64,000 nucleotides of DNA from Deltaproteobacteria bacterium CSP1-8 (GCA_001443455.1 LDXO01000001.1:205632-269631); one strand, 5' to 3'. Shown: positions 1-38,793, numbered from the stretch's first letter. Program-made: numbers and translations. Notes: generated from the sequence alone by a model not told the origin.

Positions 1-272
1 ATCCTCCCCCCGTCCTTCTCCCGGATATCCACGTCGAACTTGTCCGCCGGGCGTCCGGACTCGATGACTTCCGGCAACGGGCATCCCGTTTCGCAGAGGG
101 ATCCCCGGACCGCATCGCGGCACGGTTTTCCCACGATGTCGCCGAGTTGGTGCCCGGACCGGTCGAGAAACGACCGGTTGGCGAAGAGGATCCGGCCGTC
201 GAATGATACGGCCACCATGCCATCGGCCACGGATTCGACCATCAGGTTGTCGAAGTTCGTAGGTCCGCTCAT
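1..272 (-). CDS. PAS-domain sensor/regulator, N-terminal part (gene continues beyond the window start)
   Basis: A minus-strand ATG at 272-270 opens a frame with no stop down to position 1. It is absent from the ORF track because it is open-ended. Translation is MSGPTNFDNLMVESVADGMVAVSFDGRILFANRSFLDRSGHQLGDIVGKPCRDAVRGSLCETGCPLPEVIESGRPADKFDVDIREKDGG, a typical PAS S-box start. It is divergent from the cytochrome/molybdoenzyme cluster. Confidence 0.6.
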   Translation of the reverse strand, partial: MSGPTNFDNLMVESVADGMVAVSFDGRILFANRSFLDRSGHQLGDIVGKPCRDAVRGSLCETGCPLPEVIESGRPADKFDVDIREKDGGR

Positions 273-343
273 CGAATCTCCCCCTTGCACGTGAAGAGGC
301 GGTTTGCCCGGTTTCTTTTATGTTTCATGGATCGCGTTTCAAG

Positions 344-372
344 ATGTTAACCAATTAACGTTTCGTTAACAT
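344..372. promoter_or_regulatory. Perfect 8-bp inverted repeat ATGTTAAC-N13-GTTAACAT in an AT-rich divergent control region
   Basis: Read directly: ATGTTAAC at 344-351 and GTTAACAT at 365-372, with a third TTAAC at 355-359. It lies between the PAS regulator start (272) and the cluster start (620). The octamer ACGTTTCG recurs at 358-365, and in inverted orientation at about 571-579. Confidence 0.35.
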
Positions 373-619
373 CCGAAATCATGCAGATCAAAGTCTATAA
401 CTTGCTTGATCCAAATAGCAATATTTTTCTTGCCCATTTCCGGAATCCGCAGGCAAGAAACAAATCGTAACAACTTCCACTACCACCCCGCTTGTGCAAT
501 TTCTTGTAACCAACTGAATAACAAAAAGTTTCGTTGCCATGGAGCACCCCGGCACGAATTTCGAAACGTACCCATTCCAGAACCATACCTTTTCGATCAG
601 GACCGAAAGGAGGGAGCTC

Positions 620-2146
620 ATGAGACGAAGCGGGAAATCCCTATTGGCGGCAACCTGGTTGGCGGCCTTCCTCATTATTCCTTGCCTCTCGATGGCCGCG
701 GACCAGGACGTGCAACAGAAGCTCGACTCGATGGCGAAGGAGATCGAAGCGCTGAAGAAACAGGTCGCCTCCGCAACGCCCGAAAAAGCCTCTGGGAAAT
801 CGATCAGCGACTGGCTGACCATCGGCGGCGATTACCGGTTCCGGGTCGATTCGCTCCGGGGGAAGGTGCCCGATTATTGGCAGTTCGGTTTTGACCCCAC
901 TACCGGAAACCCCGTGTTTTTTCCCGTTTCGGAGTTCAAGGTGAAGAACGACGTCCTCTACACGAACCGGTTCGGCCTGGACCTCAAGGCGAAGGCTACC
1001 CGCAATGTCTCGGTGACGGCCCGCCTGCTGATGTACAAGTCGTTCGGCTTCCAGGACTCCGTGGATTCGGTCGGACCGTTCTTCGCCGACCGGACGGGCG
1101 TGTTTGACGGGACGCAGGGGCACGTCATCCCCGGGGACGGCAAGCTCATCGTCGACCAGGCCTACGCCACCTGGAGCAATCTCCTCGACCACCCGGTCTG
1201 GTTCTCCGTGGGGCGGCGTCCCTCCACCGGCGGGATCCCGACCCATCTCCGCCAGAACGAACCGAAGCCGGGATTAGGCGGCGTTCCGGGACTGCTCGTG
1301 GACTACGCCTTCGACGGAATGACCCTCGGATGGGCGCCCGACATCGAGGCTCTCCCGGGAGCCTATGCGAAGATCTGCTACGGCCGGGGTTTCGAGAACG
1401 GGCTCACGAGCACGTCCGGGAACGGGCAGCGCGACACCGACATGATCGGCGTCACCGTGGTTCCCTACGACACCGACCCGCTGTATGTGAACGTGCAGTG
1501 GAACCGGGGGATGAACATCTTCGACAGCCCCATCATGAAGAACACGGCGTTCGGCGACACGAGCCCCGGTTTCAACCTCGGCGACATCGACTGGTACGGG
1601 CTGGCCCTGCTCAGCACGCTGAAAGACGTCGGTCCCGGCAAGCTCAATGTCTTCGGGAGCGTAGGGATGAACGTGACTCATCCCAACGGCAATACCGTCG
1701 TGATCAACGGTTTTAACACGGGAGCCGGGCTGCTCTTTACGGGACAGAACGAATCGAAAACCGGATGGGGCGCCTATATCGGTGCCCGTTATGACATTAC
1801 CTCGACCCGGACCAAGCTCGGACTGGAATACAACCATGGATCGAAAGACTGGATCCCCTTCGTGCCGGCGGCGGACGACATCTGGACGAGCAAGCTCGGG
1901 ACCCGCGGGGACGTGTACGAGGTGTACCTGATCCAGGAGTTCAAACTGGCGCCGGTTTCCTCGTACACGAGCAAGACGTTCTTCAAGATCGGCTACCAGT
2001 ATTATGACTTCGCCTATACAGGCAGCAACAACTGGGTGGGCGCGCCGGTGAAAATCACCGAACTCAACAACCCGACGGCAGCGCAGATGCTCGTGCCGTT
2101 GAAGAACGCGCAGGACCTCTACGCCACGCTGGAGGTGAAGTTCTGA
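620..2146 (+). CDS. Outer-membrane beta-barrel protein with N-terminal coiled coil (DUF3373-like by my recollection)
   Basis: ORF 539-2146; the preferred start is ATG 620, which follows GGAGGGAG. There is a signal peptide (MRRSGKSLLAATWLAAFLIIPCLSMA/ADQ) and a heptad-like segment (QQKLDSMAKEIEALKKQV). A long Gly/aromatic-rich region with alternating pattern follows, and the protein ends ...LYATLEVKF, the terminal Phe typical of OMP barrels. Confidence 0.7.
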   Translation: MRRSGKSLLAATWLAAFLIIPCLSMAADQDVQQKLDSMAKEIEALKKQVASATPEKASGKSISDWLTIGGDYRFRVDSLRGKVPDYWQFGFDPTTGNPVFFPVSEFKVKNDVLYTNRFGLDLKAKATRNVSVTARLLMYKSFGFQDSVDSVGPFFADRTGVFDGTQGHVIPGDGKLIVDQAYATWSNLLDHPVWFSVGRRPSTGGIPTHLRQNEPKPGLGGVPGLLVDYAFDGMTLGWAPDIEALPGAYAKICYGRGFENGLTSTSGNGQRDTDMIGVTVVPYDTDPLYVNVQWNRGMNIFDSPIMKNTAFGDTSPGFNLGDIDWYGLALLSTLKDVGPGKLNVFGSVGMNVTHPNGNTVVINGFNTGAGLLFTGQNESKTGWGAYIGARYDITSTRTKLGLEYNHGSKDWIPFVPAADDIWTSKLGTRGDVYEVYLIQEFKLAPVSSYTSKTFFKIGYQYYDFAYTGSNNWVGAPVKITELNNPTAAQMLVPLKNAQDLYATLEVKF

Positions 2147-2274
2147 GAGGGTAGGGGAGGCGGGGGCCGCCGGTCCCCGCCCCTTCGGGATATCCGAAGC
2201 AAACGGGAAAAGAGAGGGTTCGGAAGGAAGGACAAGTTCGTAGTTCAAGGGTCATCCCGATGAGGAAGGAGACA

Positions 2275-2604
2275 ATGATGCGCAATACGATGCTGGTCGG
2301 GTGGGTAGCGGCAGCGGCAATTCTCTTCCTGTTGTTCGCCGGCGGAGTCGCGACGGCGGACGAGATGAAGATGGTGGGCGACGTCGTGAAGATCGAGATC
2401 TCCGGCCCCAATGCGAAAACGGCAAAGGCCACCCTCAAAGACACCAAGACGGGCAAACTGGTCACCGTCATCGTCAATGACGATCTTACGCTGGACAAGT
2501 TCAAGGACCACCGGATCGTCGTGGGCGACGAGATCCGCTGCAAGTACGAGGTCCAGGACGGAAAGAACGTCAGCAAGTATTTCCGGAAGACCGCGGGATG
2601 CTGA
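2275..2604 (+). CDS. Small secreted protein of unknown function with a C-terminal cysteine (..KTAGC-stop)
   Basis: ORF 2260-2604; AGGAAGGAG precedes the ATG ATG at 2275/2278. Signal peptide is MMRNTMLVGWVAAAAILFLLFAGGVATA/DE. The mature part is about 80 aa, Lys/Val/Asp-rich and beta-looking. Its only other Cys is in ..DEIRCKYE.. . It lies between the barrel and the cytochrome genes. Confidence 0.6.
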   Translation: MMRNTMLVGWVAAAAILFLLFAGGVATADEMKMVGDVVKIEISGPNAKTAKATLKDTKTGKLVTVIVNDDLTLDKFKDHRIVVGDEIRCKYEVQDGKNVSKYFRKTAGC

Positions 2605-2647
2605 TGGTCTTATCGGGTCAACCACGAGGGGCAAAAAGGGGCGCATC

Positions 2648-4021
2648 GTGAGAAAGGGATCGGGATCGGGTGTGCTCGTTGCGGCGATGCTCCTTGCGGG
2701 CGTGGCGGCAGCCAAGGAGCATCCGGGCAAGGAGTACATCGAGAGGAACGGATACCAGGGGCCGTCGACCTGCGAGGCGCAGGGGTGCCATCCGGGGACC
2801 GCCAAGGAGTTCCTCGACACCGTGCACTGGAAGCACGCCTCCCCGGTGCCGAATGTCGAAGGGTTGGAGCCGGGGAAAGAGTACGGGATGAAAAACCGGA
2901 TCTACACGATGTGCAACGGGAATGACATCGTGAACCACCTGAAGGAGATCCCGGCCAGCCCCGTGACGGGAAAGACCAAGTTCGCCGGTTGCAACACGTG
3001 CCATCCGGGAAACCACATCAGCGATGTCGGAAGCGTCGGAAAGGATGCGGAAAACGCGATCGACTGCCTGGTCTGCCACGCCTCGAAGTACGACTTCCGC
3101 CGGCGCAGAGCCTATAAGGACGAGACCGGCCGGGTGGTGATGGGCCAGGACCGGAGCAAGGAGGCGGCGCTTTCCGTCGGCAGGCCCGACGTGAGGAACT
3201 GCATGGTGTGCCACGAATCCGCGGGCGGCGGAGTCCTCATCAAGCGCGGGTTCGCCTATGCCAGGGAAACGGACGTCCATGCGAAGAACGGAATGGTGTG
3301 CGTGGACTGCCACGCGGCGAAGAACCACCGGATCCCCACGGGCTTCGACCCGAACAACTGGGCCAGCGACGGCATCCGGGTCTCCTGCGAGGACTGCCAC
3401 AAGGAGACGCCGCACAAGGACGGGGATCTCAACCGCCACGTGGCGCGGATCGCCTGCCAGACGTGCCACATCCCGCGCACCGGCGGCGCGATCGCCAAGG
3501 ACTTCACCCGGTGGACCCAGGGGGCCGACAAGTTCTACGAGCCGACGACGCTCAGCAAAGAGGCGAACGAGACGACGCCGGTCTACGCCTGGTACAACAA
3601 GACGGTGCGTAACGAACCGCACTTCATCGGCCCGAAGGGGAGCCGGGAGGAGATGGGGAGCAGGATCTATCCCTTCAAGATCTTCGAAGGGAAGGCGTTT
3701 TTTGACAAAAAGACCGGCAACCTCCTCTCGATGGATTTTGCCCCGCCCATGTCCACGGGCGACGCGCTGGCGGGAGTCGCCTCGGCCGCGAAGACCCTGG
3801 GAATCAAGGAATACGAGCCGGTGCCCGGCTGGCAGACCATCTACTTCGGCAGCACCCATCTCGTGACGAAGGAGAAGGCCCTGACCTGTTTCCATTGCCA
3901 CTCCCGGAACGGCGTCCTCAACTTCCGGGCGCTGGAGTACGCGGAAAAGGAAGAGGAAAAACTGACGAACGCTTCGATCTATTTCGACAAGATGGCCGAG
4001 CAGCAGAAAGAGGAATGGTAA
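2648..4021 (+). CDS. Periplasmic octaheme c-type cytochrome (resembles the tetrathionate-reductase-type octaheme family)
   Basis: This frame is the distal part of ORF 2411-4021; the likely start is GTG 2648 (VRKGSGSGVLVAAMLLAGVAAA signal). Eight heme-binding sites were read directly: CEAQGCH (CX4CH), CNTCH, CLVCH, CMVCH, CVDCH, CEDCH, CQTCH and CFHCH. Confidence 0.85.
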   Translation: MRKGSGSGVLVAAMLLAGVAAAKEHPGKEYIERNGYQGPSTCEAQGCHPGTAKEFLDTVHWKHASPVPNVEGLEPGKEYGMKNRIYTMCNGNDIVNHLKEIPASPVTGKTKFAGCNTCHPGNHISDVGSVGKDAENAIDCLVCHASKYDFRRRRAYKDETGRVVMGQDRSKEAALSVGRPDVRNCMVCHESAGGGVLIKRGFAYARETDVHAKNGMVCVDCHAAKNHRIPTGFDPNNWASDGIRVSCEDCHKETPHKDGDLNRHVARIACQTCHIPRTGGAIAKDFTRWTQGADKFYEPTTLSKEANETTPVYAWYNKTVRNEPHFIGPKGSREEMGSRIYPFKIFEGKAFFDKKTGNLLSMDFAPPMSTGDALAGVASAAKTLGIKEYEPVPGWQTIYFGSTHLVTKEKALTCFHCHSRNGVLNFRALEYAEKEEEKLTNASIYFDKMAEQQKEEW

Positions 4022-4148
4022 GCGGGAAGAGAATCCCCTCCTCTCCCTCCCGCGACCCCGGGGCTTCCCGCCCGATCCTCACAGGTTCCGCAGAGGCACG
4101 GGCGGGAAGACCGGTGCGTTTCTTTTCGCCCGGCAGGAGGTGCCACGA

Positions 4149-6347
4149 GTGAACTTCCGGATGTCGCGGAGAATGTTCCTGAAGGTGACCGGCACCGCCA
4201 CGGCCGGCCTCTCCCTCCCATCGGTGGTGCCCGAACGGTACCTCTCGTGGGCCGAGACGGCGCCGGAGGAGCTGAAACCGGTACCCACCTTCTGCGAGCT
4301 CTGCTTCTGGAACTGCGGACTGATCGCCAAGGTGCAGAACGGCAAAGTCGTCAAGATCGACGGCAACCCGCTGAGCGAACGGGGGCGCGGACGACTCTGC
4401 GGCCGGGGAAATGCGGCCCTGGGCTCCCTCTACGACCCGGACCGGCTCAAGTTTCCCATGATCAACACCGGCAGGCGGGGCCAGCCGGCATGGAAGCGGG
4501 CAAGCTGGGACGAGGCTTTGGGGCTGGTCGCACGCAAGCTCGAGGACATCAGGGAAAAACACGGGCCCGAGACGGTGGCCCTCTTCTCCCACGGGTGCGG
4601 CGGCGCATTCTGGAAGCACCTGATGAAGGCCTACGGCAGCCGCAGCCATGCCGCCCCCTCCGATGCCCAGTGCCGCGGGCCAAGGGACGTCGGCTTCACT
4701 CTCACCTTCGGTTCCGATGTCGGTTCGCCGGAATATTACGACTTCGGCGAGAGCCGCTACATCGTGCTCATCGGCTCCCACCTCGGCGAGAACGCACACA
4801 ACAGCCAGGTGCAGGATATCGTCACGGGGTTGGCGAAAGGGGCGAAGCTCGCCGTCGTCGACCCGCGCCTCTCGAACATCGCCGCGAAGGCCGACCACTG
4901 GCTCCCCATCAGGCCGGCCACCGACCTTGCACTCCTTCTGGCCTGGATCCGCCTCATCGTGAACGAGGAACTCTACGACGCGGACTACGTGAAGGCATAT
5001 GCCATCGGCCTCCCCGAGCTTACGGCCGCCGTGCAGGAGTACACCCCCGAATGGGCCGCCGGGGAGACCGAACTTCCGGTGGAGACCATCGCCCGGGTGG
5101 CCCGGGAGCTGGCCGCGCACAGGCCCAACGTCATCATCTCCGCCGGACGTTACAACTGCTGGTACGGAGACGACACGCAACGTTGCCGCGCCATCGCCAT
5201 CCTCAACGCCCTCCTCGGCTCCTGGGGACGTCCGGGAGGCATCTATCTTCCCGCCGGCGGAGGTGTCCCGGAATACCCCGACCTTCCGGTCTACCCCTCC
5301 GGCCGTGCCGGTCTTCCCGAGCTGGACGCGGCCTATCCGTTCGCCCTGTCGCAGACCACCACCTCCGTCAGGCAGGCGTCGATCACCGGGAAGCCACACC
5401 CGTTCAAGGCATGGCTGGTATACGGCTGCAATCTGATCAAGACCCTGCCGGGGCGGGACGAAACCGTCCGGGCGATCGACAACCTCGACCTTCTGGTCGC
5501 CATCGACATCCTTCCGGCCGACATCACCCGGTGGGCCGATGTGGTCCTCCCGGAATGCACCTATCTGGAGCGGCACGATGCCTTGAGCCTGGGCAGAGGC
5601 AAGAATTTCGAGGTGGCCATGCGGCAGCCCGCCGTCTCGCCCCTCTTCGAGAGCAAGCCCTCCTGGTGGATCACCAAGGAGCTGGCCATTAGACTGGGCC
5701 TGGGCGACTACTTCCCCTGGAAGGACGGCGAGGAATACCTGCGCGGACGCTGCCGGGCCGGCAATATCGACTACGACGAACTCCGCGGCAAGGGGGTCGT
5801 ACGCTTCTCCGGCAAATCGAGTCCCTATCTCTCCCCGCACGAAGAGCGGGAATTCGATACCCCTTCCGGGAAGATCGAGCTCTACTCCGGGCAGCTCGCC
5901 GATCGCGGGTTCGACCCGGTGCCGAAATACACGAGGCACGAGCAGCCTCCGGCCGGCTATTTCCGGGTCCTGTTCGGCCGCTCGCCGCTTCATACCTTCG
6001 CCCGGACCACGAACAATTTCCTCCTCGCGGACCTGGTTCCGGAGAACTCCTTATGGATCAACCGGAAGAAGGCGCGGGAGCTGGGTCTCGAGGACGGGGA
6101 ATACGTCCGCCTGGAAAACCAGGCCGGCTTTCTATCGCCGGGGAAAATCCGGGTCCGCCACACCCAACGGCTCCGCGAAGACTGCATCTACATGGTCCAC
6201 GGTTTCGGCGTCCACTCCGCGGAGCTTACAAGGGCCGACGGCAAGGGGATCGGAGACGAGGAGATGCTCGCCCGGTACTCGATCGACCCCATCATGGGAG
6301 GGACCGCCATGAGGTCCAACTTCGTCAGGGTCGTGAAGGAGGGGTAA
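4149..6347 (+). CDS. Tat-exported molybdopterin (Mo/W-bisPGD) oxidoreductase catalytic subunit, PsrA/PhsA/TtrA-like
   Basis: ORF 4140-6347. AGGAGG at 4135-4140 favours GTG 4149, with ATG 4161 as the alternative. There is a twin-arginine signal (MSRRMFLKVTGTATAGLSL) and an N-terminal FeS motif (CELCFWNCG...LCGRG). A candidate Mo-ligand Cys lies in ..APSDAQCRGPRD.. . The length and the C-terminal beta-barrel domain are typical of the DMSO reductase superfamily. Confidence 0.9.
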   Translation: MNFRMSRRMFLKVTGTATAGLSLPSVVPERYLSWAETAPEELKPVPTFCELCFWNCGLIAKVQNGKVVKIDGNPLSERGRGRLCGRGNAALGSLYDPDRLKFPMINTGRRGQPAWKRASWDEALGLVARKLEDIREKHGPETVALFSHGCGGAFWKHLMKAYGSRSHAAPSDAQCRGPRDVGFTLTFGSDVGSPEYYDFGESRYIVLIGSHLGENAHNSQVQDIVTGLAKGAKLAVVDPRLSNIAAKADHWLPIRPATDLALLLAWIRLIVNEELYDADYVKAYAIGLPELTAAVQEYTPEWAAGETELPVETIARVARELAAHRPNVIISAGRYNCWYGDDTQRCRAIAILNALLGSWGRPGGIYLPAGGGVPEYPDLPVYPSGRAGLPELDAAYPFALSQTTTSVRQASITGKPHPFKAWLVYGCNLIKTLPGRDETVRAIDNLDLLVAIDILPADITRWADVVLPECTYLERHDALSLGRGKNFEVAMRQPAVSPLFESKPSWWITKELAIRLGLGDYFPWKDGEEYLRGRCRAGNIDYDELRGKGVVRFSGKSSPYLSPHEEREFDTPSGKIELYSGQLADRGFDPVPKYTRHEQPPAGYFRVLFGRSPLHTFARTTNNFLLADLVPENSLWINRKKARELGLEDGEYVRLENQAGFLSPGKIRVRHTQRLREDCIYMVHGFGVHSAELTRADGKGIGDEEMLARYSIDPIMGGTAMRSNFVRVVKEG

Positions 6348-6350
6348 TCG

Positions 6351-7505
6351 ATGCGGTTCGACGGAATCGTTCTGCCGGATCGTGCCAGACTGCGGGAAGC
6401 CGTCGACGACATCCGGAAAGGGCGGGGGGGGATTTCGCTCTACCTCTCCCTCCTGGGGCTGTTGGCCGGTTTCCTCGCCATCGGGTGCATCTTCCTCCTG
6501 GGGCACGCCCATACCACGAACACCTCCGACCTCGTGCCGTGGGGGATCCAGATCACCACCTACGTCTACTTCGTCCTGATCAGCACCGGCTGCACCTTCG
6601 TAAACTTCTTCGGTGCGATCTTTTACGAGGAGGAATACAGTCCCTACGCGTCCCGCGTCATGTTCCTCGCGATCGTGACGGCCCTGGCCGCCTTCATCTC
6701 CCTGGCCACCGAGATGGGCCGGATCGACCGGATGTACTACTTCCTGATCTCGCCCAACCCCGCCTCCCCCATGTTCTGGATGTCGGTCTGGTACGCCGCC
6801 GACATTTTCATCATCGTCCTCGAGTACATCAACATCCGGCGGAGCCGGCACTCCCGGAAGGTCATGTGGGCCGCCTTCTTCGTCGCCGTCGTCACCTACG
6901 GCACGCTGGGGAGCCTCTTCGGGGCTGTCGGCTCGCGCGCCTACTACTACAGCGCCCTGTTGCCGATCTACTTCCTCTTCATGGCCTTCCTCACCGGCGG
7001 CGCGCTTTGCGCCCTCGTCGCCGCCGTCGAGGGGAGGAAGACCCCGGGGGACGGTTCTCCCCTTCCGGCCTTCTTCACGACCTTCCTGAAGATTGGCCTG
7101 GGGCTTGCGCTCTTTGCCACCTTCTGGCGACTCATGATCGGCCTGGCGGGGCACGTTCCCGGTTCCGAAGCCTTCGGCCTCACCCTCTTCGACACCCTCT
7201 TCTTCGGCATCTTCCTCGGAGTCGTCGTGCCGTTCCTCCTGCTCCTGGCGACCCGCGGTCCCGTCGGGCTGATCTTCACCGGCCTCCTGATCCTGGCCAC
7301 CCAGTTCAAGGGACGGATGGACCTGGTGGTCGGCGGCTTCCGGGTACCCGTCTTTCGTGCCTACGACATTCCTGCGGTGGTGCAGTACACCCCTTCGATC
7401 TTCGAAGTGCTGGTCCTGATCGCCTCGGTGTCGCTGGTTTCGTTCCTCTATCTGGTGTGCGACCGTTCCGGCCTTTTCGAGCCCATTCCGGGAAAGGAGG
7501 CCTGA
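6351..7505 (+). CDS. NrfD/PsrC-type integral membrane quinol-interacting subunit
   Basis: The 384-aa ORF starts 3 nt after the catalytic subunit stop. It has multiple hydrophobic helices and an NrfD-like N-terminal region (..HAHTTNTSDLVPWGIQITTYVYFVLISTG..). Confidence 0.85.
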   Translation: MRFDGIVLPDRARLREAVDDIRKGRGGISLYLSLLGLLAGFLAIGCIFLLGHAHTTNTSDLVPWGIQITTYVYFVLISTGCTFVNFFGAIFYEEEYSPYASRVMFLAIVTALAAFISLATEMGRIDRMYYFLISPNPASPMFWMSVWYAADIFIIVLEYINIRRSRHSRKVMWAAFFVAVVTYGTLGSLFGAVGSRAYYYSALLPIYFLFMAFLTGGALCALVAAVEGRKTPGDGSPLPAFFTTFLKIGLGLALFATFWRLMIGLAGHVPGSEAFGLTLFDTLFFGIFLGVVVPFLLLLATRGPVGLIFTGLLILATQFKGRMDLVVGGFRVPVFRAYDIPAVVQYTPSIFEVLVLIASVSLVSFLYLVCDRSGLFEPIPGKEA

Positions 7506-7509
7506 AGAA

Positions 7510-8220
7510 TTGGAGACCCGGGAGGACATCCTGGAGATCATGCGCGAGGATCTGAAGCGGGCTCTCCAGAAGACGCGCAGCGAACGCCGCTGGGGCATGG
7601 CCATCGACCTCAGGAGGTGCATCGGCTGCCACGCCTGCACCACCGGCTGCATGTCCGAGAACCTGACCCCGCCGGGAATGCGCTACCGGCCGGTGCGGGA
7701 AGAAGAGATCGGCCAGTTTCCGAACGTATCGCTCCGTTTCCTGCCCCGTCCCTGCATGCAGTGCGATTCGCCCACCTGCACCCCGGTCTGCCCGGTGAAG
7801 GCGACCTACAAACGGGACGACGGGATCGTCATGATCGACTACCGGAAGTGCATCGGATGCCGGTATTGCCTGGTGGCCTGCCCCTACGGCGCCCGCTCAG
7901 CCGACGTCGGCCATTATTACACCGGCGAAATGAAGAAACAGACCTACGAGGTGGAGAACTCCGGCGAGTACGGCAAGGTCTTCAAGAGAAAGACCCATTG
8001 GCATTCCCCCATCGGCAACGCCCGGAAGTGCCACTTCTGCATCCACCGGGTGGAGAAGGGGGAGTTGACCCGCTGCACCACCACCTGCCTGGGGCACGCC
8101 ACCTACTTCGGCGACCTCAACGACCCAAAAAGCCTGATCAACAAAGTGATCGCGAAGGCCAACGCCTTCCGGTACAGGGAGGAGCTGGGGACAGAGCCGA
8201 GGGTGATCTATATCGTCTGA
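7510..8220 (+). CDS. Four-cluster [4Fe-4S] ferredoxin subunit, PsrB/NrfC/HybA-like
   Basis: Four Cys groups were read: CIGCHACTTGC, CMQCDSPTCTPVCP, CIGCRYCLVACP and CHFC...CTTTC. No obvious signal peptide is present. Confidence 0.9.
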   Translation: METREDILEIMREDLKRALQKTRSERRWGMAIDLRRCIGCHACTTGCMSENLTPPGMRYRPVREEEIGQFPNVSLRFLPRPCMQCDSPTCTPVCPVKATYKRDDGIVMIDYRKCIGCRYCLVACPYGARSADVGHYYTGEMKKQTYEVENSGEYGKVFKRKTHWHSPIGNARKCHFCIHRVEKGELTRCTTTCLGHATYFGDLNDPKSLINKVIAKANAFRYREELGTEPRVIYIV

Positions 8221-8252
8221 TCCGCGATCGTCGGAACAACGATCCTCCGGGA

Positions 8253-8903
8253 TCAGTGCCCCCCCGCCTCCTTCCCCCACAGCTGCTGCAGCCTGTGGTC
8301 GCGCCCGCAGTTGTACCGGTAGATCTTGTACCGAACCGGGTTCTTCTTGTAGTAGTGCTGGTGATACTCCTCGGCGGGGTAGAACTCCGAGGCGGGGACG
8401 ATCTCGGTCACGATGGGGGACGAAAACCGCTTCGACTCCTCCAGGGCCTTTTTCGACGCCTCGGCAAGCTTTTTTTGCTCCTCGTCGTGGTAGAAGATCG
8501 CCGAGCGGTACTGCGTGCCGTGGTCGCAGAACTGGGCATCCCTGGTCAGCGGGTCCACGTTGCGCCAGAAGATGTCAAGCATCTTCGCATAGGAGATCTT
8601 CGCGGGGTCGTAAACGATCTGCACGGATTCGGTGTGTCCCGTCCCCCCGGCCGACACCTCCTCGTAGGTCGGGTTCTTCTTCTGTCCCCCCGCGTAGCCC
8701 ACGGTGACGGAGAGGACCCCGTCCTGCTTGTCGAAGGGCGACTCCATGCACCAGAAGCAACCGCCCGCGAACGTCGCCTTCGCGGAATTCCGGCCCTGCT
8801 TCGCCCCACCGCCGCGGTCCTCGGCGCCCGAAACCGTTGCAACCAGAAGCGGGATCATCAGCCACCCCAGAAATACCGCGTTCGTGAGCATATGGGTCTT
8901 CAT
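8253..8903 (-). CDS. msrA: Peptide-methionine (S)-S-oxide reductase MsrA with an N-terminal signal peptide
   Basis: The catalytic motif GGCFWCME and the region ..GTGHTESVQIVYDP..YHQHYY.. are present. The preferred start is MKTHMLTNAVFLGWLMIPLLVATVSGA at 8903. Confidence 0.9.
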   Translation of the reverse strand: MKTHMLTNAVFLGWLMIPLLVATVSGAEDRGGGAKQGRNSAKATFAGGCFWCMESPFDKQDGVLSVTVGYAGGQKKNPTYEEVSAGGTGHTESVQIVYDPAKISYAKMLDIFWRNVDPLTRDAQFCDHGTQYRSAIFYHDEEQKKLAEASKKALEESKRFSSPIVTEIVPASEFYPAEEYHQHYYKKNPVRYKIYRYNCGRDHRLQQLWGKEAGGH

Positions 8904-9066
8904 CGATTTTCCCCTGTCCCATGGAATAAGGTTCATCTTTCCTTAGATTCGCGATGGGGCTTCGAGATCCGCCCCGCGGGATTCCTGGTTTGCTCCCCAG
9001 GCACCCGGGGGGGGAGTACAGGGCCTTGACATATGGCGGTACCCCAATCCATGATGTTGGAACCGA

Positions 9067-9726
9067 TTGAGTGCTCACTCGGTAGGGGGGGTCGTGGGGG
9101 AGAAGAACAGGCGATCCGCCATCCTGGCGGTTGCCTCACACCTGTTCGCGGAAAAAGGGTACAGCAACACCACCACCGCGGAGATCGCCCAGGAGGCGGG
9201 GGTCGCCGAAGGGACGCTCTACCATCACTTCGGGAGCAAGGACGGGATCTTCCTCACCATCTTCGACGAGATGGCGGAGGAGTACCTGGCGGGGGCGGAA
9301 CGCCTGGCCGGGGACGGAAAGACCGGGGCGGAAACGCTGTCCGGCCTGATCCGATTCCACTTCGAATATCTCGAACGGAACAAGACCCGCTTCCTCGTGA
9401 TCCTTCGGGATTTTCCGAATCATCTCGCCGCCGATCGGGATGGTCGACCGGCGGAAATCCGGAACCGGTTCAGCCGCATGACCGACATTCTGTCCCTGGT
9501 CTTGACGAAAGGGTTCCATGACGGGACTCTACGCCCCAGCTTCCCTGTGCGGGATACGGCGGGTCTTCTCCGGGGAATCCTCTACGGGACCACGCGGCAC
9601 AGCATGCTCGGGATCATCGACGTGCCCCTTTCCCGACTTTCCCGCATGGTGGAAGGGTACTGCCTGCAGGCGCTCTCCCCCGACTCGCGTGCCGGGGGGA
9701 AGCGGGGGAAAGGTGGGAAAAAATGA
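9067..9726 (+). CDS. TetR/AcrR family transcriptional regulator
   Basis: The HTH region ILAVASHLFAEKGYSNTTTAEIAQEAGVAEGTLYHHFGSKDGIF is present. The gene is first in an efflux operon. An alternative start is GTG 9094. Confidence 0.85.
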   Translation: MSAHSVGGVVGEKNRRSAILAVASHLFAEKGYSNTTTAEIAQEAGVAEGTLYHHFGSKDGIFLTIFDEMAEEYLAGAERLAGDGKTGAETLSGLIRFHFEYLERNKTRFLVILRDFPNHLAADRDGRPAEIRNRFSRMTDILSLVLTKGFHDGTLRPSFPVRDTAGLLRGILYGTTRHSMLGIIDVPLSRLSRMVEGYCLQALSPDSRAGGKRGKGGKK

Positions 9727-11081
9727 CTTTCCGAAAAGGGTTTCCGACTGCGACAGCGGTGGCTTTCCTGATATGGATCGGGCACTTGCCCAGCCAGGCG
9801 CAGGAGCAGCCTCCGGGCCTTGCCTCTCCTCCCGCAGGAAGTCGCGGAGAGACTGCATCGGGGGGAAACGACAACACCGACCGGACCGGTATCCTGTGGA
9901 ACATGGACAATGTCGTCGGGATCGCGCTTTCCCGGCATCCCCTGATCGGTCAGGCCGACGCCGATACGACGGCCGCCATCGCGCGAAAAGGCCAAGCCGT
10001 ATCGGGGTATTACCCATCGATCAACCTGTCCACCGGATACGCGCGGTCCCGTTCGCTTTCCTCCCAGAGCCCGGAAAGCGTTACTTCTTCCGAAAGATTC
10101 ATCGAGGGAAACGTTTCCCAGATCATCACGGACTTCGGCCGGACGAGGGCCGGCGCAGACCGTGCGGGATCACTCGTATCCGCCGCTGCGGAAAGCGGGA
10201 AATCCAAGCGACAAGATGTTGCTTTCGCCTCGAAAATCGCCTATTTCAGCGTCCTCCGGGCGCAGAGGATCGTAGACATCCGCCGCGAGACGTTGCAGCA
10301 GCGCGAGTCGCTCCTGACCCAGGCGCAGGCCTTCTACGATGCGGGGGTCCGGGCGCGGATCGACGTGGCACGCGCGGAAGCCAACCTCTACCAGGCGCGC
10401 GCAGAGCTGACCGCCGCCTTGAACGAACTCCAGGTGGCGCGGATCACCCTGCTCAACCGCATGGGCATCGACGGGCCAAAGGATTTCGGCCTTATGGACA
10501 CCCTCGCCGTGGTGACGGTTCCGGGAACTCTCGACTCGTGGGTCGCCGAGGCGGAGGCGAACCGTCCGGAACTGAGCTCGATCCGGGAACGGGAACGGGC
10601 GGCGGAATACGGGCTTCGCGCGGCTCGAGCCGGCTATTATCCAATCCTCACGGGGGCCGGCGGGTACGGATATGCCGCGGAAGAACCGCCCCTGAAGCAG
10701 AACTACGACCTCACCGTCCTTCTGAATTTCCCAGTCTTCTCGGGATTCTCGACGAGGGAGCAGGTAAAGGAGGCACAGGCGTCGCTCGACTCGACGAGGT
10801 TCGCGGCAACGGAACTCCGGCGCCTGGTCCGCCTCGAGGTGGAGCAGGCGTCCCTCTCCGTCCGGGAAGCATACGAGCGCTCCGAAGCCCGCCGGAAGGA
10901 GCAGGAGGCGTCCCGGGAAAACCTGCGACTTGCGAGGGAACGGTACAAGGTGGGGGCGGGAGACATCATCGAAATGATCGATGCGCAGGTGCAGATGAGC
11001 CGGGCGGACACCGCCGTGATCGAGGCGCTCTACGATTCCAGCATCTCCGCGGCGACGCTCCTCCGGGCGCTGGGGAGATAG
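9723..11081 (+). CDS. TolC-family outer membrane efflux protein
   Basis: The ATG overlaps the tetR stop (ATGA). It has a signal peptide and the two-repeat coiled-coil OMF pattern (..AQAFYDAGVRARIDVARAEANLYQARAEL..). Confidence 0.85.
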   Translation: MTFRKGFPTATAVAFLIWIGHLPSQAQEQPPGLASPPAGSRGETASGGNDNTDRTGILWNMDNVVGIALSRHPLIGQADADTTAAIARKGQAVSGYYPSINLSTGYARSRSLSSQSPESVTSSERFIEGNVSQIITDFGRTRAGADRAGSLVSAAAESGKSKRQDVAFASKIAYFSVLRAQRIVDIRRETLQQRESLLTQAQAFYDAGVRARIDVARAEANLYQARAELTAALNELQVARITLLNRMGIDGPKDFGLMDTLAVVTVPGTLDSWVAEAEANRPELSSIRERERAAEYGLRAARAGYYPILTGAGGYGYAAEEPPLKQNYDLTVLLNFPVFSGFSTREQVKEAQASLDSTRFAATELRRLVRLEVEQASLSVREAYERSEARRKEQEASRENLRLARERYKVGAGDIIEMIDAQVQMSRADTAVIEALYDSSISAATLLRALGR

Positions 11082-11146
11082 GCCGGGGAAGCAGGGAAGG
11101 TCCGGCGAACCAAACAGGTTGCATCAAGCGTCTCAAGAGGAAACCG

Positions 11147-15300: not shown

Positions 15301-15459
15301 CTCTTTTCCCAGATCATCACGCTCTACATCACGCCGGTGATCTACACGTTCCTGGACGGGTTCCAGGCCGTTCTCCAGGGATGGCTGCAACGGCTCCGCG
15401 AAACCGTCGGGGGCAGGAGGGCAAAACCGGCACTCCCGCTCGATCCCGCCGCCGGCTGA
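12319..15459 (+). CDS. RND family efflux permease (AcrB/MexB type)
   Basis: 1046 aa, beginning MNIPEQFIRRPVMTTLVMLAILLFG, with the typical 12-TM / two-large-loop organisation. The start overlaps the adaptor stop. Confidence 0.95.
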   Translation: MNIPEQFIRRPVMTTLVMLAILLFGVMGYRHLPVSDLPNVDFPTLLVTANLPGASPETMASSVATPLEKQFSTIAGVDSMTSSSGIGLTQITLTFSLSRNIDAAAQDVQAAIAKAASQLPRDMPSPPSYQKVNPADQPILYFALYSPTLPLSTVDEYAQTFIAQRISMISGVAQVLVFGSQKYAVRVRLDPDSMAARGIGIDEVAGAIEQGNVNLPTGTLSGPHQAFTVETRGQLMEADAYRPLVVAYRNGSPVRLQDIGTVVDSVENDKVASWYKTTRAVVLAIQRQPGTNTVEVVDSIHRLLPTFRVQMPASIELAILYDRSVSIRDSVNDVQFTLFLAICLVVLVIFLFLRNLSATLIPSLAVPMSVVGTFAVMYLMGYSLDNLSLMALTLSVGFVVDDAIVMLENIVRHMERGEDARTAAFRGSKEIGFTILSMTLSLVAVFIPVLFMGGVVGRLLHEFAVTIGAAILVSGFVSLTLTPMLCSRFLRPPGEEKHGRVYQASERVFVGMLSFYDRSLRWVLRYRRATIVFSALLLIVTAYLFVVIPKGFLPAEDTGMIFGFTEAAQGISFDSMKEHQQALAAVVAADPNVESFMSSIGPSGPNVAGNSGRIFIRLKPRKERDLSSDEIIQALRPKISKIPGIRAFLQNLPPIRIGGQLTKSQYQLTLQSPDTGDLYRMAPVLEARMREIAGLQDVTSDLQIKNPQVNVKIERDKAKSMGITAQQIEDALFSAYGSRQISTIFTPNNTYKVIMEVEPRYQTDPEALSRLYVRSSAGGLVPLNAVATMTPGVGPLLVNHLGQLPSVTISFNLQPGISLGQAVAAVDKVARVTLPASITTSFQGTAQAFQASLQGMGILLVMAILVIYLVLGILYESFIHPLTILSGLPAAGIGALVALMIFRMDLSLYAFVGVIMLVGIVKKNAIMMIDFALEAERKEGKSPAEAIYEGCLVRFRPIMMTTMSALMATLPIAIGFGAGAEARRPMGIAVVGGLLFSQIITLYITPVIYTFLDGFQAVLQGWLQRLRETVGGRRAKPALPLDPAAG

Positions 15460-27468: not shown

Positions 27469-27472
27469 CGGG

Positions 27473-38786: not shown

Positions 38787-38793
38787 GCCGTCC

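What the first reader, a model, noticed from the sequence alone, without database searches (positions are those of the whole stretch)
273..8220. Six-gene cluster coupling an outer-membrane barrel and an octaheme cytochrome to a Psr-like Mo/NrfD/FeS complex
What the sequence shows:
- The genes are tightly spaced and all on the plus strand. In order they are an OM beta-barrel (620-2146), a small secreted Cys-tail protein (2275-2604), an octaheme cytochrome (2648-4021), a Tat-signal Mo-bisPGD subunit (4149-6347), an NrfD-type subunit (6351-7505) and a 4x[4Fe-4S] subunit (7510-8220).
- The cluster is divergent from a PAS regulator.

What established knowledge adds:
- The last three genes form a classic complex-iron-sulfur-molybdoenzyme (Psr/Phs/Ttr) module, but in A-C-B order rather than the usual A-B-C or B-C-A.

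What I infer:
- I know of no characterised Psr/Phs/Ttr operon that also carries a dedicated OM barrel and a multiheme cytochrome.
- The nearest architectural analogies are Shewanella DmsEFAB (OM barrel + multiheme + Mo enzyme), Geobacter porin-cytochrome conduits, and Qrc/ACIII (cytochrome + Mo-like + FeS + NrfD).
- One reading is a quinol-linked periplasmic reductase for a sulfur or metalloid oxyanion, whose substrate enters through the barrel.
- The other reading is a trans-outer-membrane electron conduit wired to a molybdoenzyme.
- The substrate is unknown.
Basis: partly seen in the sequence, partly recalled or inferred. Interest (0 to 1): 0.72.

Follow-up and report, generated by a model that had tools for sequence, protein, structure and literature searches.

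The report
Sulfur-reductase operon with channel and carrier
A real, recurrent but unstudied gene cluster joins a polysulfide-reductase-type molybdenum enzyme to an outer-membrane channel, a small secreted protein ending in a cysteine, and a divergent eight-heme cytochrome; it most likely imports and reduces sulfur compounds rather than wiring electrons to the outside of the cell.

Summary
The window comes from the Rifle MAG "Deltaproteobacteria bacterium CSP1-8".

- **Two modules.** Module 1 is a DUF3373 barrel, an OB-fold protein ending in an invariant ...KTAGC, and an Otr-like octaheme cytochrome. It keeps the same order in about 70 of 80 genome loci, usually without Psr.
- **Module 2.** This is a PsrA-NrfD-FeS set in A-C-B order that forms its own uncharacterised clade. 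Of 18 loci in this clade with enough upstream sequence, 13-14 carry the barrel and small protein. Six of them lack the octaheme cytochrome.
- **Link to known Otr.** Shewanella's characterised Otr also sits beside a DUF3373 gene.
- **Divergent cytochrome.** It is only 29-32% identical to Otr, and Otr's heme-ligand Lys56 is replaced by an invariant Met.
- **Sulfur signals.** Relatives add triple-rhodanese, YeeE and DsrC-like genes. Published Desulfurivibrio proteomics shows a DUF3373 protein rising together with Psr on elemental sulfur.

Best reading (about 0.5): a quinol-linked periplasmic sulfur/polysulfide reductase with a dedicated channel and a Cys-tail carrier. The trans-outer-membrane conduit reading is not supported. 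I rate it a new variant of a known kind, interest 0.64.

The parts
1..272 (-). N-terminus of the divergently transcribed regulator. It is a PAS domain with a CX9CX3C motif, and the rest lies off the window.
   Evidence: Translation. The full-length 92%-identical homologue in L091 is a 582-aa PAS-PAS-sigma54 AAA+-HTH protein, and both of its PAS domains carry CX9CX3C. The same regulator lies divergently upstream of the barrel in L005, L007, L008, L010, L012 and L087-L091.
343..373 (.). Inverted repeat with GTTAAC-containing arms in the divergent intergenic region. It is a candidate activator-binding site (inferred).
   Evidence: I2: 12-nt arms, 92% complementary. It is conserved in sister contigs.
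550..564 (+). Sigma-54-type promoter-like element, CGGCACGAATTTCGA, about 55 nt upstream of the barrel ATG.
   Evidence: This is the only block conserved between the window lineage and the more distant L005/L008, which read TGGCATGCT(C/T)TTCGC (GG-N10-GC). The window copy has GA instead of GC at -12, and the pattern alone is not significant genome-wide. It fits the sigma54-type activator next door.
620..2146 (+). Outer-membrane beta-barrel of family DUF3373, made of a signal peptide, a short coiled-coil segment and the barrel. It has one invariant Cys (Cys253, KICYGRGFE) and a C-terminal Phe.
   Evidence: Pfam PF11853, E 8e-147. TCDB family 1.B.62 is predicted to have 18 strands (PMC4827864). 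The Cys is invariant in 90 of 90 homologues and also present in the Shewanella DUF3373 protein. No PDB sequence homologue was found.
2275..2604 (+). Small secreted OB-fold protein (about 80 aa when mature) with an invariant C-terminal tail, ...(R/K/V)KTAGC.
   Evidence: AF2 model with core pLDDT of about 90. Foldseek hits are OB folds. The tail is invariant in 78 of 78 and 31 of 31 homologues. Among remote relatives of 85-135 aa, 69 of 100 also end in Cys. There is no Pfam or NCBIfam family and no PDB homologue.
2648..4021 (+). Periplasmic octaheme c-type cytochrome from a divergent subfamily of the Otr (octaheme tetrathionate reductase) family.
   Evidence: TIGR04315 scores 158.5 bits against a cutoff of 375. 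PDB 1SP3 matches at E 1e-24. Identity to true Otr is 29-32%. Otr Lys56 aligns with Met81 and Otr Cys64 with Cys89; both are invariant in 98 of 98 homologues.
4140..6347 (+). Tat-exported Mo/W-bisPGD catalytic subunit of the Psr/Phs type.
   Evidence: Thermus PsrA (2VPW) scores 709 bits, with 47% identity over 721 aa. The Mo-ligand Cys173 aligns with Cys178. NCBIfam PhsA scores 484 bits against a cutoff of 694. It falls in a monophyletic 'A-C-B' clade separate from Thermus PsrA.
6351..7505 (+). NrfD-family integral membrane quinol-interacting subunit (384 aa, about 9-10 hydrophobic segments).
   Evidence: Pfam NrfD scores 69.7 bits. The best NCBIfam hit is DsrP at 43 bits. No PDB chain matches at E<=1, not even Thermus PsrC. 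Hydropathy scan.
7510..8220 (+). Four-cluster [4Fe-4S] ferredoxin subunit with no signal peptide of its own.
   Evidence: Fer4_11 and related Pfam families. DsrO scores 181 bits and TtrB 168 bits, both below cutoff. Thermus PsrB matches only the N-terminal half, whereas ACIII ActB-type proteins match the full length.

Best explanation
The cluster encodes a respiratory system for a reduced or zero-valent sulfur substrate, most likely polysulfide derived from elemental sulfur and possibly thiosulfate or tetrathionate. It is built from two modules that also occur separately.

Shown by the evidence:
- The DUF3373 barrel and the OB-fold Cys-tail protein form a fixed pair.
- That pair is joined either to an Otr-like octaheme cytochrome, or to a PsrA-NrfD-FeS molybdoenzyme, or, as here, to both.

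Inferred mechanism:
- The barrel is an outer-membrane channel that admits the sulfur substrate.
- The small protein takes up sulfane sulfur on its terminal thiol. Its flexible ...TAGC tail then presents the sulfur to a terminal reductase, in the way the SoxY swinging arm or the Sud sulfurtransferase does.
- PsrA reduces the sulfur at its Mo centre. Electrons run from menaquinol through NrfD and the four-cluster ferredoxin.
- The octaheme cytochrome is a second periplasmic reductase, or an electron donor fed by the periplasmic cytochrome pool.
- The invariant lone cysteines in the barrel (Cys253), the carrier (C-terminus) and the cytochrome (Cys89) could form a thiol relay.
- Expression is probably sigma-54 dependent and controlled by the divergent PAS-PAS activator, whose Cys-rich PAS domains may sense redox state or sulfur.
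For: Module structure:
- The trio keeps the same order and strand in about 70 of 80 genome loci.
- The six-gene layout recurs in L015, L039, L065, L067, L069, L071, L073, L076, L078 and L081, partly in L070 and L079, and in L087-L091, L097, L098, L110, L112, L124 and L160.
- Reverse test: of 18 A-C-B-clade PsrA loci with at least 5 kb upstream, 13 have the barrel, 14 the small protein and 7 the octaheme. Six have the barrel and small protein without the octaheme. Only 2 of 14 loci in the neighbouring PsrA clade have the trio.

Evidence for sulfur:
- PsrA homology, with the Mo-ligand Cys conserved.
- Otr homology.
- A monoheme protein with three rhodanese domains is inserted in many clusters.
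- YeeE, YeeE-rhodanese and DsrC-like genes lie in the Acidobacteria version.
- In Desulfurivibrio dismutans grown by S0 disproportionation, the top up-regulated proteins are a 114-aa hypothetical protein in the psr operon (log2FC 8.9), a DUF3373 protein (8.1), PsrA (7.8), PsrB (7.6) and the rhodanese (7.5) (supplement of PMC12142623).
- A DUF3373 protein is among the most abundant proteins in Dissulfuribacter under thiosulfate disproportionation (PMC13490349).

Evidence for a carrier:
- The C-terminal Cys is invariant.
- A second, unrelated Lys-rich secreted protein that also ends in ...GC follows the FeS gene in 32 related loci.

Precedent:
- The Geobacter extHIJKL 'porin-cytochrome' cluster turned out to encode a periplasmic multiheme polysulfide reductase. 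The route of polysulfide across the outer membrane is stated there to be unknown (PMC13510729).

Channel, not sheath:
- DUF3373 is a predicted 18-strand porin family.
- The barrel occurs with Psr without any multiheme cytochrome.
Against: - There is no experimental datum for any protein of this exact cluster, and every complete six-gene example is a MAG or a metagenome contig.
- The role of the C-terminal Cys is inferred only from its conservation and from analogy. The fold is OB, not the SoxY fold.
- The barrel could not be modelled (pLDDT 31), so pore size and the position of Cys253 are unknown.
- Most trio-bearing genomes lack an adjacent Psr, so the trio must also work on its own.
- The octaheme cytochrome lacks Otr's Lys ligand (Met instead), so it may be a pure electron carrier rather than a reductase.
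- Otr itself also reduces nitrite and hydroxylamine in vitro (PMC13510729), so homology does not fix the substrate.
- The D. dismutans DUF3373 gene is not next to psr. I could not check whether its 114-aa protein is a homologue of the small protein here.
Confidence: 0.5

Rival explanations
1. The architecture and logic are the same, but the physiological substrate is another chalcogen or metalloid species, such as selenite, tellurite, selenate or arsenate, rather than sulfur.
For: - Geobacter ExtI is a selenite-uptake porin, and MccSep also turns over selenite (PMC13510729).
- The cytochrome has weak similarity to the ExtM/N/O 'selenite/tellurite reduction operon' models (E 1e-6 to 1e-4, far below cutoff).
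- The trio is present in the arsenate-respiring isolates Geobacter sp. OR-1 and Anaeromyxobacter sp. PSR-1 (the physiology is from my own knowledge).
- Thiol and rhodanese carriers also handle selenium.
Against: - ArrA (122 bits against a cutoff of 1600) and the YnfE/F selenate reductase models score far lower than PhsA or Thermus PsrA.
- The YeeE and DsrC-like neighbours and the S0-specific induction of DUF3373 and Psr in D. dismutans point to sulfur.
Confidence: 0.13
2. The window holds two independent units that merely lie side by side: an Otr-type module (barrel, small protein, cytochrome) and a Psr-type reductase. They act on different substrates and do not interact physically or metabolically.
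For: - The trio occurs alone in most genomes, for example Geotalea uraniireducens Rf4 and the window's own closest relatives L005 and L008.
- The octaheme cytochrome is dispensable in many Psr clusters.
- A 118-nt gap separates the cytochrome and psrA genes.
Against: - The barrel and small protein are found immediately upstream of A-C-B PsrA in 13-14 of 18 loci, against 2 of 14 in the neighbouring clade.
- At least three different Psr architectures have recruited the trio.
- All genes share one strand, and no terminator-like site lies between them.
- DUF3373 and Psr are co-induced in D. dismutans even though they are unlinked there.
Confidence: 0.15
3. The cluster is a trans-outer-membrane electron conduit (porin-cytochrome complex). 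The barrel sheathes the octaheme cytochrome and passes electrons from the quinol-oxidising NrfD/FeS module to an extracellular acceptor or to the Mo enzyme.
For: - The gene order of barrel, small periplasmic protein and multiheme cytochrome superficially resembles the Geobacter Ext/Pcc clusters.
- The host lineages (Geobacteraceae, MBNT15) are rich in extracellular electron-transfer cytochromes (PMC9386147).
Against: - The barrel is DUF3373, a predicted 18-strand porin family. It is not MtrB/PioB, and no NCBIfam hit was found.
- The cytochrome is homologous to soluble, crystallised Otr. It scores 26.9 bits against a cutoff of 192 for the DmsE/MtrA family.
- No extracellular cytochrome gene is present.
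- The barrel and small protein occur with Psr and no multiheme cytochrome.
- The analogous extHIJKL cluster proved to encode a periplasmic reductase, not a conduit.
Confidence: 0.05
4. The system runs oxidatively. Sulfide, polysulfide or thiosulfate is oxidised in the periplasm on a carrier cysteine, as in Sox, and the electrons enter the quinone pool or the periplasmic cytochromes.
For: - A carrier with a C-terminal Cys combined with a c-type cytochrome is the logic of SoxYZ/SoxXA and TsdA (own knowledge; the parallel is noted in PMC13510729).
- The Lys-to-Met change in the cytochrome would suit a higher-potential heme.
- Sulfur disproportionators use Psr-like enzymes in mixed redox schemes.
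Against: - The hosts are mainly anaerobic Fe(III) and S0 reducers.
- Psr/Phs-type enzymes with menaquinol-oxidising NrfD subunits are known as reductases (own knowledge).
- The D. dismutans authors assign Psr to the reductive branch.
Confidence: 0.08

Closest known systems
Thermus thermophilus polysulfide reductase PsrABC (PDB 2VPW-2VPZ), and the Wolinella/Salmonella Psr/Phs group
   Same: - The catalytic subunit is 47% identical over 721 aa (709 bits).
- It shares the Tat signal, the FS0 cysteine motif and the Mo-ligand Cys (Cys173 aligns with Cys178).
- Both have a four-cluster ferredoxin and an NrfD-type anchor.
   Different: - The gene order is A-C-B, not A-B-C.
- The anchor is 384 aa with about 9-10 hydrophobic segments and shows no detectable similarity to Thermus PsrC.
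- The ferredoxin resembles PsrB only in its N-terminal half and is otherwise DsrO/ActB-like.
- The PhsA equivalog cutoff is not reached.
- It forms a separate clade.
- It is accompanied by the barrel, the Cys-tail protein and the octaheme cytochrome.
Shewanella oneidensis octaheme tetrathionate reductase Otr (SO_4144, PDB 1SP3)
   Same: - Both have eight hemes and the same overall family (E 1e-24).
- The non-heme Cys64 equivalent is conserved.
- The gene lies immediately next to a DUF3373 barrel gene in both.
   Different: - Identity is only 29-32%, and the protein scores below the family cutoff (158 against 375 bits).
- The heme-2 ligand Lys56 (PMC3769277) is replaced by an invariant Met.
- There is a 20-25-residue insertion before the heme-2 motif.
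- The small partner is an OB-fold Cys-tail protein instead of a monoheme cytochrome c.
Geobacter sulfurreducens ExtHIJKL cluster, which includes MccSep (ExtKL), a periplasmic pentaheme selenoprotein polysulfide reductase
   Same: - The operon logic matches: outer-membrane barrel, small periplasmic protein, rhodanese, and a catalytic multiheme cytochrome acting on chalcogens.
- The catalysis relies on cysteine or selenocysteine (PMC13510729).
   Different: - There is no detectable homology. The barrel and small protein hit no Ext models, and the cytochrome has eight hemes and no Sec.
- This cluster also carries a molybdoenzyme, which ExtHIJKL lacks.
SoxYZ thiosulfate-oxidation carrier (and Wolinella Sud)
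   Same: It is a small periplasmic protein whose conserved cysteine sits on a short Gly-containing C-terminal arm. This is the proposed basis for carrying sulfur between enzymes (an analogy from my own knowledge).
   Different: - The fold is OB, not the SoxY immunoglobulin-like fold.
- The Cys is the very last residue.
- There is no SoxZ partner.
- The proposed direction is reductive.
- Sulfur loading has not been tested.
Desulfurivibrio dismutans psr operon (RS06465-06490)
   Same: - It is a Psr operon with a triple-rhodanese sulfurtransferase and a highly induced small (114 aa) hypothetical protein.
- A DUF3373 protein is co-induced on S0.
   Different: - The gene order is A-B-C.
- The DUF3373 gene is unlinked.
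- No octaheme cytochrome lies in the operon.
- Homology of its small protein to the one here was not tested.

Membership tests
Psr/Phs-type complex iron-sulfur molybdoenzyme (catalytic subunit) | Tat signal, N-terminal [4Fe-4S] Cys motif and the three molybdopterin-oxidoreductase domains | tested here: met
   The Tat motif is SRRMFLK. The cluster motif is C52-x2-C55-x3-C59...C87. PF04879, PF00384 and PF01568 all score above cutoff.
Psr/Phs-type complex iron-sulfur molybdoenzyme (catalytic subunit) | Cysteine ligand to Mo (Thermus PsrA Cys173) | tested here: met
   It aligns with window Cys178.
Psr/Phs-type complex iron-sulfur molybdoenzyme (catalytic subunit) | Reaches the curated equivalog score for PhsA (NF012032), or nests in a characterised clade | tested here: not met
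   It scores 484 bits against a cutoff of 694. The NJ tree puts it in a separate A-C-B clade, away from Thermus PsrA.
Psr/Phs-type complex iron-sulfur molybdoenzyme (whole complex) | Four-cluster ferredoxin subunit plus an NrfD/PsrC-type quinol-oxidising anchor | tested here: met
   Pfam Fer4_11 and related families, and NrfD at 69.7 bits. The anchor and the C-terminal half of the ferredoxin are nevertheless of a different subtype from Thermus PsrBC.
Psr/Phs-type complex iron-sulfur molybdoenzyme (whole complex) | Polysulfide or thiosulfate reductase activity | not testable with these tools
   This needs enzyme assays.
Otr, tetrathionate reductase family octaheme cytochrome (TIGR04315) | Eight c-type heme-binding motifs in the Otr arrangement | tested here: met
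   There are 7 CXXCH motifs plus 1 CX4CH, and all align with the Otr motifs.
Otr, tetrathionate reductase family octaheme cytochrome (TIGR04315) | Score above the family's curated cutoff | tested here: not met
   It scores 158.5 bits against 375.
Otr, tetrathionate reductase family octaheme cytochrome (TIGR04315) | Lysine (Lys56) ligand of the active-site heme 2 | tested here: not met
   Lys56 (PMC3769277) aligns with Met81, which is invariant in 98 of 98 homologues. The neighbouring Lys82 is present in only 87 of 98. This rests on a sequence alignment only.
DUF3373 (PF11853) outer-membrane barrel | Full-length match to the Pfam model | tested here: met
   E 8.4e-147, covering model positions 1-409 of 409.
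Porin-cytochrome electron conduit (MtrAB/DmsEF/Pcc type) | MtrB/PioB-type large barrel and an MtrA/DmsE-type periplasmic decaheme | tested here: not met
   The barrel matches only DUF3373. The cytochrome scores 26.9 bits against 192 for the DmsE family.
Porin-cytochrome electron conduit (MtrAB/DmsEF/Pcc type) | Partner extracellular cytochrome encoded in the cluster | tested here: not met
   No further cytochrome ORF lies in 273-8220.
Qrc / Alternative Complex III | Cofactor-less Mo-like subunit (QrcB/ActB) together with a multiheme subunit | tested here: not met
   QrcB scores 127.6 bits against a cutoff of 440. The Mo-ligand Cys and 47% identity to a true Mo enzyme are retained.
SoxY-type sulfur carrier | Immunoglobulin-like SoxY fold with a GGCGG arm and a SoxZ partner | tested here: not met
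   The fold is OB, the tail is ...TAGC, and no SoxZ-like gene is present. Only the principle of a C-terminal Cys arm is shared.

The most novel reading that the evidence does not exclude
The DUF3373 barrel and the Cys-tail proteins form a previously unrecognised thiol-relay uptake system for insoluble or polymeric sulfur. The Cys-tail proteins are the OB-fold ...TAGC protein and, in relatives, a disordered Lys-rich ...GC protein. In this reading, an outer-membrane channel with an invariant cysteine hands sulfane sulfur to a carrier whose terminal thiol then inserts into either a molybdenum or a heme reductase. That would make it a reductive counterpart of the Sox swinging-arm carrier. It would also supply the missing outer-membrane step of elemental-sulfur respiration and give a physiological context for the long-orphaned Otr enzyme family.
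Probability: 0.22. Interest if true: 0.85.

Novelty: new variant of a known kind. Interest (0 to 1): 0.64.

Why it matters
- **An open question becomes testable.** How elemental sulfur or polysulfide crosses the outer membrane and reaches periplasmic reductases is explicitly unresolved, even in the newest work on Geobacter sulfur respiration (PMC13510729). This cluster names concrete candidates: a channel family (DUF3373) and a carrier family (an OB-fold protein with a C-terminal Cys). Both are widespread, unannotated and genetically tied to two kinds of sulfur reductase.
- **Otr gains a context.** Otr was crystallised in 2004 but still has no clear physiological role. Here it has a conserved partner barrel and a sister subfamily with a different heme ligand.
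- **A distinct Psr clade.** The A-C-B clade has DsrP/DsrO-like electron-input subunits, and annotation pipelines currently lump it with thiosulfate reductases.
- **Environmental relevance.** The hosts (MBNT15/Deferrimicrobia, Geobacteraceae, Acidobacteriota) are abundant in aquifers, peat and paddy soils, so a cryptic sulfur cycle there could run through this system.

Tried and rejected
- AF2 model of the barrel from a single sequence gave pLDDT 31 and was unusable. A home-made alternating-hydrophobicity scan gave roughly 18-20 strand-like segments, but it is unvalidated.
- Profile-profile comparison of the small protein with the N-terminal domain of the rhodanese fusion gave probability 3.5%, so homology is not shown.
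- PDB sequence searches for the barrel, the small protein and NrfD found nothing meaningful.
- Three literature leads led nowhere. 'PpcF/OTR' refers to an unrelated triheme protein. GSU2201-2204 are OmcK and an MtrB-like protein, not this trio. Papers mentioning SO_4143/4144 say nothing about the barrel.
- The listing of cluster members on remote small-protein relatives returned no names or accessions. I therefore could not check whether D. dismutans RS06490 is a homologue.
- The Rfam scan of 1-9200 found nothing, including no Moco riboswitch.
- The sigma-70 promoter and terminator scan gave counts at chance level.
- The sigma-54 consensus search over the whole window was not enriched. The promoter call rests on cross-lineage conservation only.
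- I considered and rejected a Qrc/ACIII-type cofactor-less complex, an MtrAB-type conduit, and membership of ArrA or TtrA.

Full report
**Observation.**
- The barrel (620-2146) is a full-length member of Pfam DUF3373 (E 8e-147).
- The small ORF (2275-2604) has a signal peptide, belongs to no known family and ends in ...RKTAGC.
- The cytochrome (2648-4021) has seven CXXCH motifs and one CX4CH.
- The next three genes are a Tat-signal Mo-bisPGD subunit (4140-6347), an NrfD protein (6351-7505) and a four-cluster ferredoxin (7510-8220).
- Gaps between genes are 3-128 nt, and the scan found no + strand terminator-like site in this region.
- A PAS-domain ORF starts at 272 on the opposite strand. In a 92%-identical sister contig it is a PAS-PAS-sigma54 AAA+-HTH activator, and both PAS domains carry a CX9CX3C motif.
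- The only intergenic block conserved between this lineage and more distant relatives is a sigma-54-like GGCAYG-N4-TTCG element at 550-564. This favours the ATG at 620 over the one at 539.
- The organism is the Rifle aquifer MAG 'Deltaproteobacteria bacterium CSP1-8' (100% match), a member of the MBNT15/Deferrimicrobia group.

**The cluster is two modules.** I scanned one genome per species with an alignment of the cytochrome and obtained 150 relatives, of which the best 80 loci were kept. I then searched those loci with the six window proteins by tblastn.
- About 70 of the 80 loci have barrel, small protein and cytochrome in the same order and on the same strand. Most of the rest are cut by contig ends.
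- In most cultured carriers (Geotalea uraniireducens Rf4, Geobacter, Geomonas, Citrifermentans, Anaeromyxobacter) the trio stands alone among housekeeping genes.
- The full six-gene layout, with psrA-nrfD-fes directly behind the cytochrome, recurs in about 12 Geobacteraceae, Desulfuromonadaceae and Pelobacter MAGs.
- A different Psr-like set is joined to the trio in Acidobacteriota. There it lies upstream, together with YeeE, YeeE-rhodanese, NrfD and a DsrC-like gene. The same kind of alternative set occurs in two Geobacter MAGs.
- So at least three Psr architectures have come to lie next to the trio.

**The reverse test.** I scanned metagenome contigs with PsrA.
- PsrA relatives of at least 60% identity always have nrfD directly after psrA. 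I call this the A-C-B clade.
- Of 18 such loci with at least 5 kb upstream, 13 have the barrel, 14 the small protein, 14 a rhodanese fusion and only 7 the octaheme cytochrome.
- Six have the barrel and small protein but no octaheme.
- In the neighbouring 45-54% clade (order A-B-YeeE-YeeE/rhodanese), only 2 of 14 carry the trio.
- The constant partners of this Psr clade are therefore the barrel and the small protein. The cytochrome is an optional second partner.
- The window's nearest genome relatives (L005, L008) have the trio and the PAS regulator but no Psr. The six-gene form is thus patchily distributed even within the lineage.

**The molybdoenzyme.**
- PsrA is 47% identical to Thermus thermophilus PsrA over 721 residues (709 bits), and the Mo-ligand Cys173 aligns with Cys178.
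- It scores 484 bits on NCBI's PhsA model (cutoff 694) and far lower on ArrA, TtrA, DmsA and QrcB.
- A neighbour-joining tree of 84 sequences shows the A-C-B clade as monophyletic. Its sister is the two trio-linked Geobacter A-B sequences, and Thermus PsrA sits on a separate long branch.
- The partner subunits are not Thermus-like. The NrfD protein is 384 aa with about 9-10 hydrophobic segments, matches no PDB chain at E<=1 and is nearest to DsrP.
- The ferredoxin matches PsrB only in its N-terminal half, but matches DsrO and ACIII ActB types along its full length.
- My conclusion is that this is a genuine Mo/W enzyme of the Psr/Phs group, in an uncharacterised clade with a different electron-input module.

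**The cytochrome.**
- It belongs to the Otr family (PDB 1SP3, E 1e-24) but scores 158 bits against a cutoff of 375. It is 29-32% identical to true Otr.
- In Otr, heme 2 is bound by C74xxC77H78 and ligated by Lys56 (PMC3769277). I confirmed the numbering against the PDB chain.
- In the alignment, Lys56 corresponds to Met81, which is invariant in 98 of 98 homologues. Otr Cys64 corresponds to the invariant Cys89.
- Some Geomonas loci carry a true Otr-type paralogue between the small protein and this cytochrome.
- I reconstructed Shewanella Otr from the PDB alignment and looked up its orthologues. In S. psychrotolerans the order is monoheme cytochrome c, then DUF3373, then Otr.
- That Shewanella barrel is 30% identical to the window's barrel.
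- The DUF3373-Otr pairing is therefore old and extends to the characterised enzyme. I found no paper that comments on it.

**The small protein and the cysteines.**
- The small protein has 925 clusters of close relatives, all annotated as hypothetical and without a Pfam domain.
- AF2 gives a confident OB fold (core pLDDT about 90), and Foldseek matches only OB-fold proteins.
- The tail (R/K/V)KTAGC is invariant in 78 of 78 and 31 of 31 homologues.
- In a search of 1.84 billion representatives, 69 of 100 remote relatives of similar length also end in Cys, mostly as xGC.
- The barrel has a single cysteine, Cys253 in KICYGRGFE. It is invariant in 90 of 90 homologues and conserved in Shewanella.
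- In 32 related Psr loci, a second and unrelated small secreted protein follows the ferredoxin gene. It is Lys-rich and disordered and ends in ...AKPAAKGKKE(V/L)SGC. The window lacks it.
- Two unrelated secreted proteins ending in Gly-Cys, together with lone invariant cysteines in the barrel and the cytochrome, suggest thiol chemistry. This is an inference.

**Substrate.** Several lines point to sulfur.
- Many clusters insert a protein of about 467 aa with one CXXCH motif and three rhodanese domains.
- The Acidobacteria version carries YeeE, rhodanese and DsrC-like genes.
- In the supplementary proteome of Desulfurivibrio dismutans, the proteins most increased on S0 disproportionation are a 114-aa hypothetical protein in the psr operon (log2FC 8.9), a DUF3373 protein encoded elsewhere (8.1), PsrA (7.8), PsrB (7.6) and the triple-rhodanese protein (7.5). 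The authors discuss Psr and the rhodanese but not DUF3373.
- A DUF3373 protein is also among the most abundant proteins in Dissulfuribacter under thiosulfate disproportionation.
- The Geobacter extHIJKL cluster (porin, small protein, rhodanese, multiheme cytochrome) was recently shown to encode a periplasmic polysulfide reductase. Its authors state that the outer-membrane route of polysulfide is unknown (PMC13510729).

**Mechanism proposed (confidence about 0.5).** The barrel admits a sulfur species. The Cys-tail protein carries it as a persulfide or polysulfide. PsrA reduces it with electrons that run from menaquinol through NrfD and the ferredoxin. The octaheme cytochrome is a second reductase or an electron donor. 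A sigma-54 activator with Cys-rich PAS domains controls expression.
- Shown: the gene content, the co-conservation pattern, the homologies and the conserved residues.
- Inferred: channel function, sulfur loading of the Cys, the substrate, the direction of the reaction and the regulation.

**Rivals.**
- Another chalcogen or metalloid as substrate (0.13).
- Two independent units lying side by side (0.15).
- An oxidative direction (0.08).
- A trans-outer-membrane conduit (0.05).

The conduit reading is weakest for three reasons. The barrel is not MtrB/PioB-like and belongs to a family predicted to have 18 strands. The cytochrome is related to a soluble enzyme and not to MtrA/DmsE. The barrel also occurs with Psr in the absence of any multiheme cytochrome.

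**Novelty and limits.**
- The parts belong to known superfamilies, but several findings appear to be undescribed: the A-C-B Psr clade, the Met-for-Lys Otr subfamily, the OB-fold Cys-tail family, the DUF3373-Otr and DUF3373-Psr linkage, and the modular cluster as a whole.
- DUF3373 occurs in the main text of only three papers in the library, none about its function. The MBNT15 genome paper only counts 'thiosulfate and tetrathionate reductases'.
- All complete examples are MAGs or contigs, and no protein of the cluster has been studied.
- The barrel could not be modelled.
- The tree lacks the Wolinella, Salmonella and Shewanella references.
- The Lys-to-Met inference rests on a sequence alignment.

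Noticed in passing
L065:15638-15877, L015:15651-15926, L107:9749-10018, L142:12203-12466 and about 28 other related loci; absent from the window: A second small secreted protein is encoded directly after the FeS gene in most A-C-B Psr clusters of Geobacteraceae. It has a signal peptide and a Lys/Glu-rich disordered region and ends in ...AKPAAKGKKE(V/L)SGC. In 34 of 35 extracted copies the last two residues are Gly-Cys.
   Followed up: partly
L065:8401-9804, L067:8414-9826, L073:4958-6361, L071:11436-12827: A gene of about 467 aa encodes one N-terminal CXXCH motif plus three rhodanese domains. It is inserted between the small protein and the cytochrome or psrA in many relatives: 19 of 84 genome loci and 14 of 18 A-C-B metagenome loci. 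The window lineage lacks it.
   Followed up: partly
L087, L088, L089, L091 (sister contigs from the same kind of sample) compared with window 620-8220: Strain-level mosaicism. In L087 and L088 the cytochrome, PsrA and FeS are 98-100% identical to the window, but the barrel is only 72-73% identical, the small protein 75% and NrfD 87%. In L091 the small protein is 96% identical and the barrel 72%. This suggests recombination or diversifying selection on the surface-exposed barrel.
   Followed up: no
window 2771-2791: The first heme-binding motif is CEAQGCH (CX4CH) in the window lineage and in one close relative (P0014). All other family members have the canonical CEECH.
   Followed up: no
window 1-272 (- strand); L091:2381-4129: Both PAS domains of the divergent sigma-54 activator contain a C-x9-C-x3-C motif (GKPCRDAVRGSLCETGCP and GRKCTEVFRSDFCEAGCP). 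This could bind a metal or an Fe-S cluster, or sense thiol or sulfur status.
   Followed up: no
L045:8186-9685, also L052, L056, L059, L061, L063 and L017: Geomonas and one Geobacter MAG carry a true Otr-type octaheme gene between the small-protein gene and the Met-type cytochrome gene. It retains the YGK...FC and CHFYGGGGDAVK signatures. Both Otr subfamilies therefore sit in one cluster.
   Followed up: partly
Supplement of PMC12142623 (Desulfurivibrio dismutans): P0N66_RS06490, P0N66_RS02895: The two proteins most strongly increased under S0 disproportionation are an undiscussed 114-aa hypothetical protein at the head of the psr operon and an unlinked DUF3373 protein. Whether the 114-aa protein is a Cys-tail homologue could not be checked.
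   Followed up: partly
window 8253-8936 (- strand): A peptide-methionine sulfoxide reductase MsrA with an N-terminal hydrophobic signal-like segment lies convergent with the end of the cluster. It may be an exported MsrA.
   Followed up: no
window 9067-15459: A TetR-family regulator is followed by an outer-membrane factor, a membrane-fusion protein and an RND pump, which together look like an efflux operon. Two further efflux-type gene sets lie at 25882-28663 and 37557-42036.
   Followed up: no
P0431 (1653 aa), P0473 (1235 aa), P0467 (1046 aa), P0488 (1071 aa): A few very large proteins contain 5-10 tandem stretches that match the small-protein OB-domain profile. P0425 and P0449 (422 and 466 aa) have the domain at the N-terminus, followed by unrelated sequence.
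   Followed up: no
L132:2395-2640 and 5265-5498; L133:2552-2797 and 5422-5655: Two copies of the small Cys-tail gene (70% and 52% identical to the window's) lie in one cluster that joins the trio to an A-B-YeeE-YeeE/rhodanese Psr set.
   Followed up: no
window 343-373 and 421-465: Two inverted repeats lie in the divergent intergenic region, one with GTTAAC-containing arms and one reading ATATTTTTCTTGCC/GGCAAGAAACAAAT. Both are conserved in sister contigs and are possible regulator binding sites.
   Followed up: no
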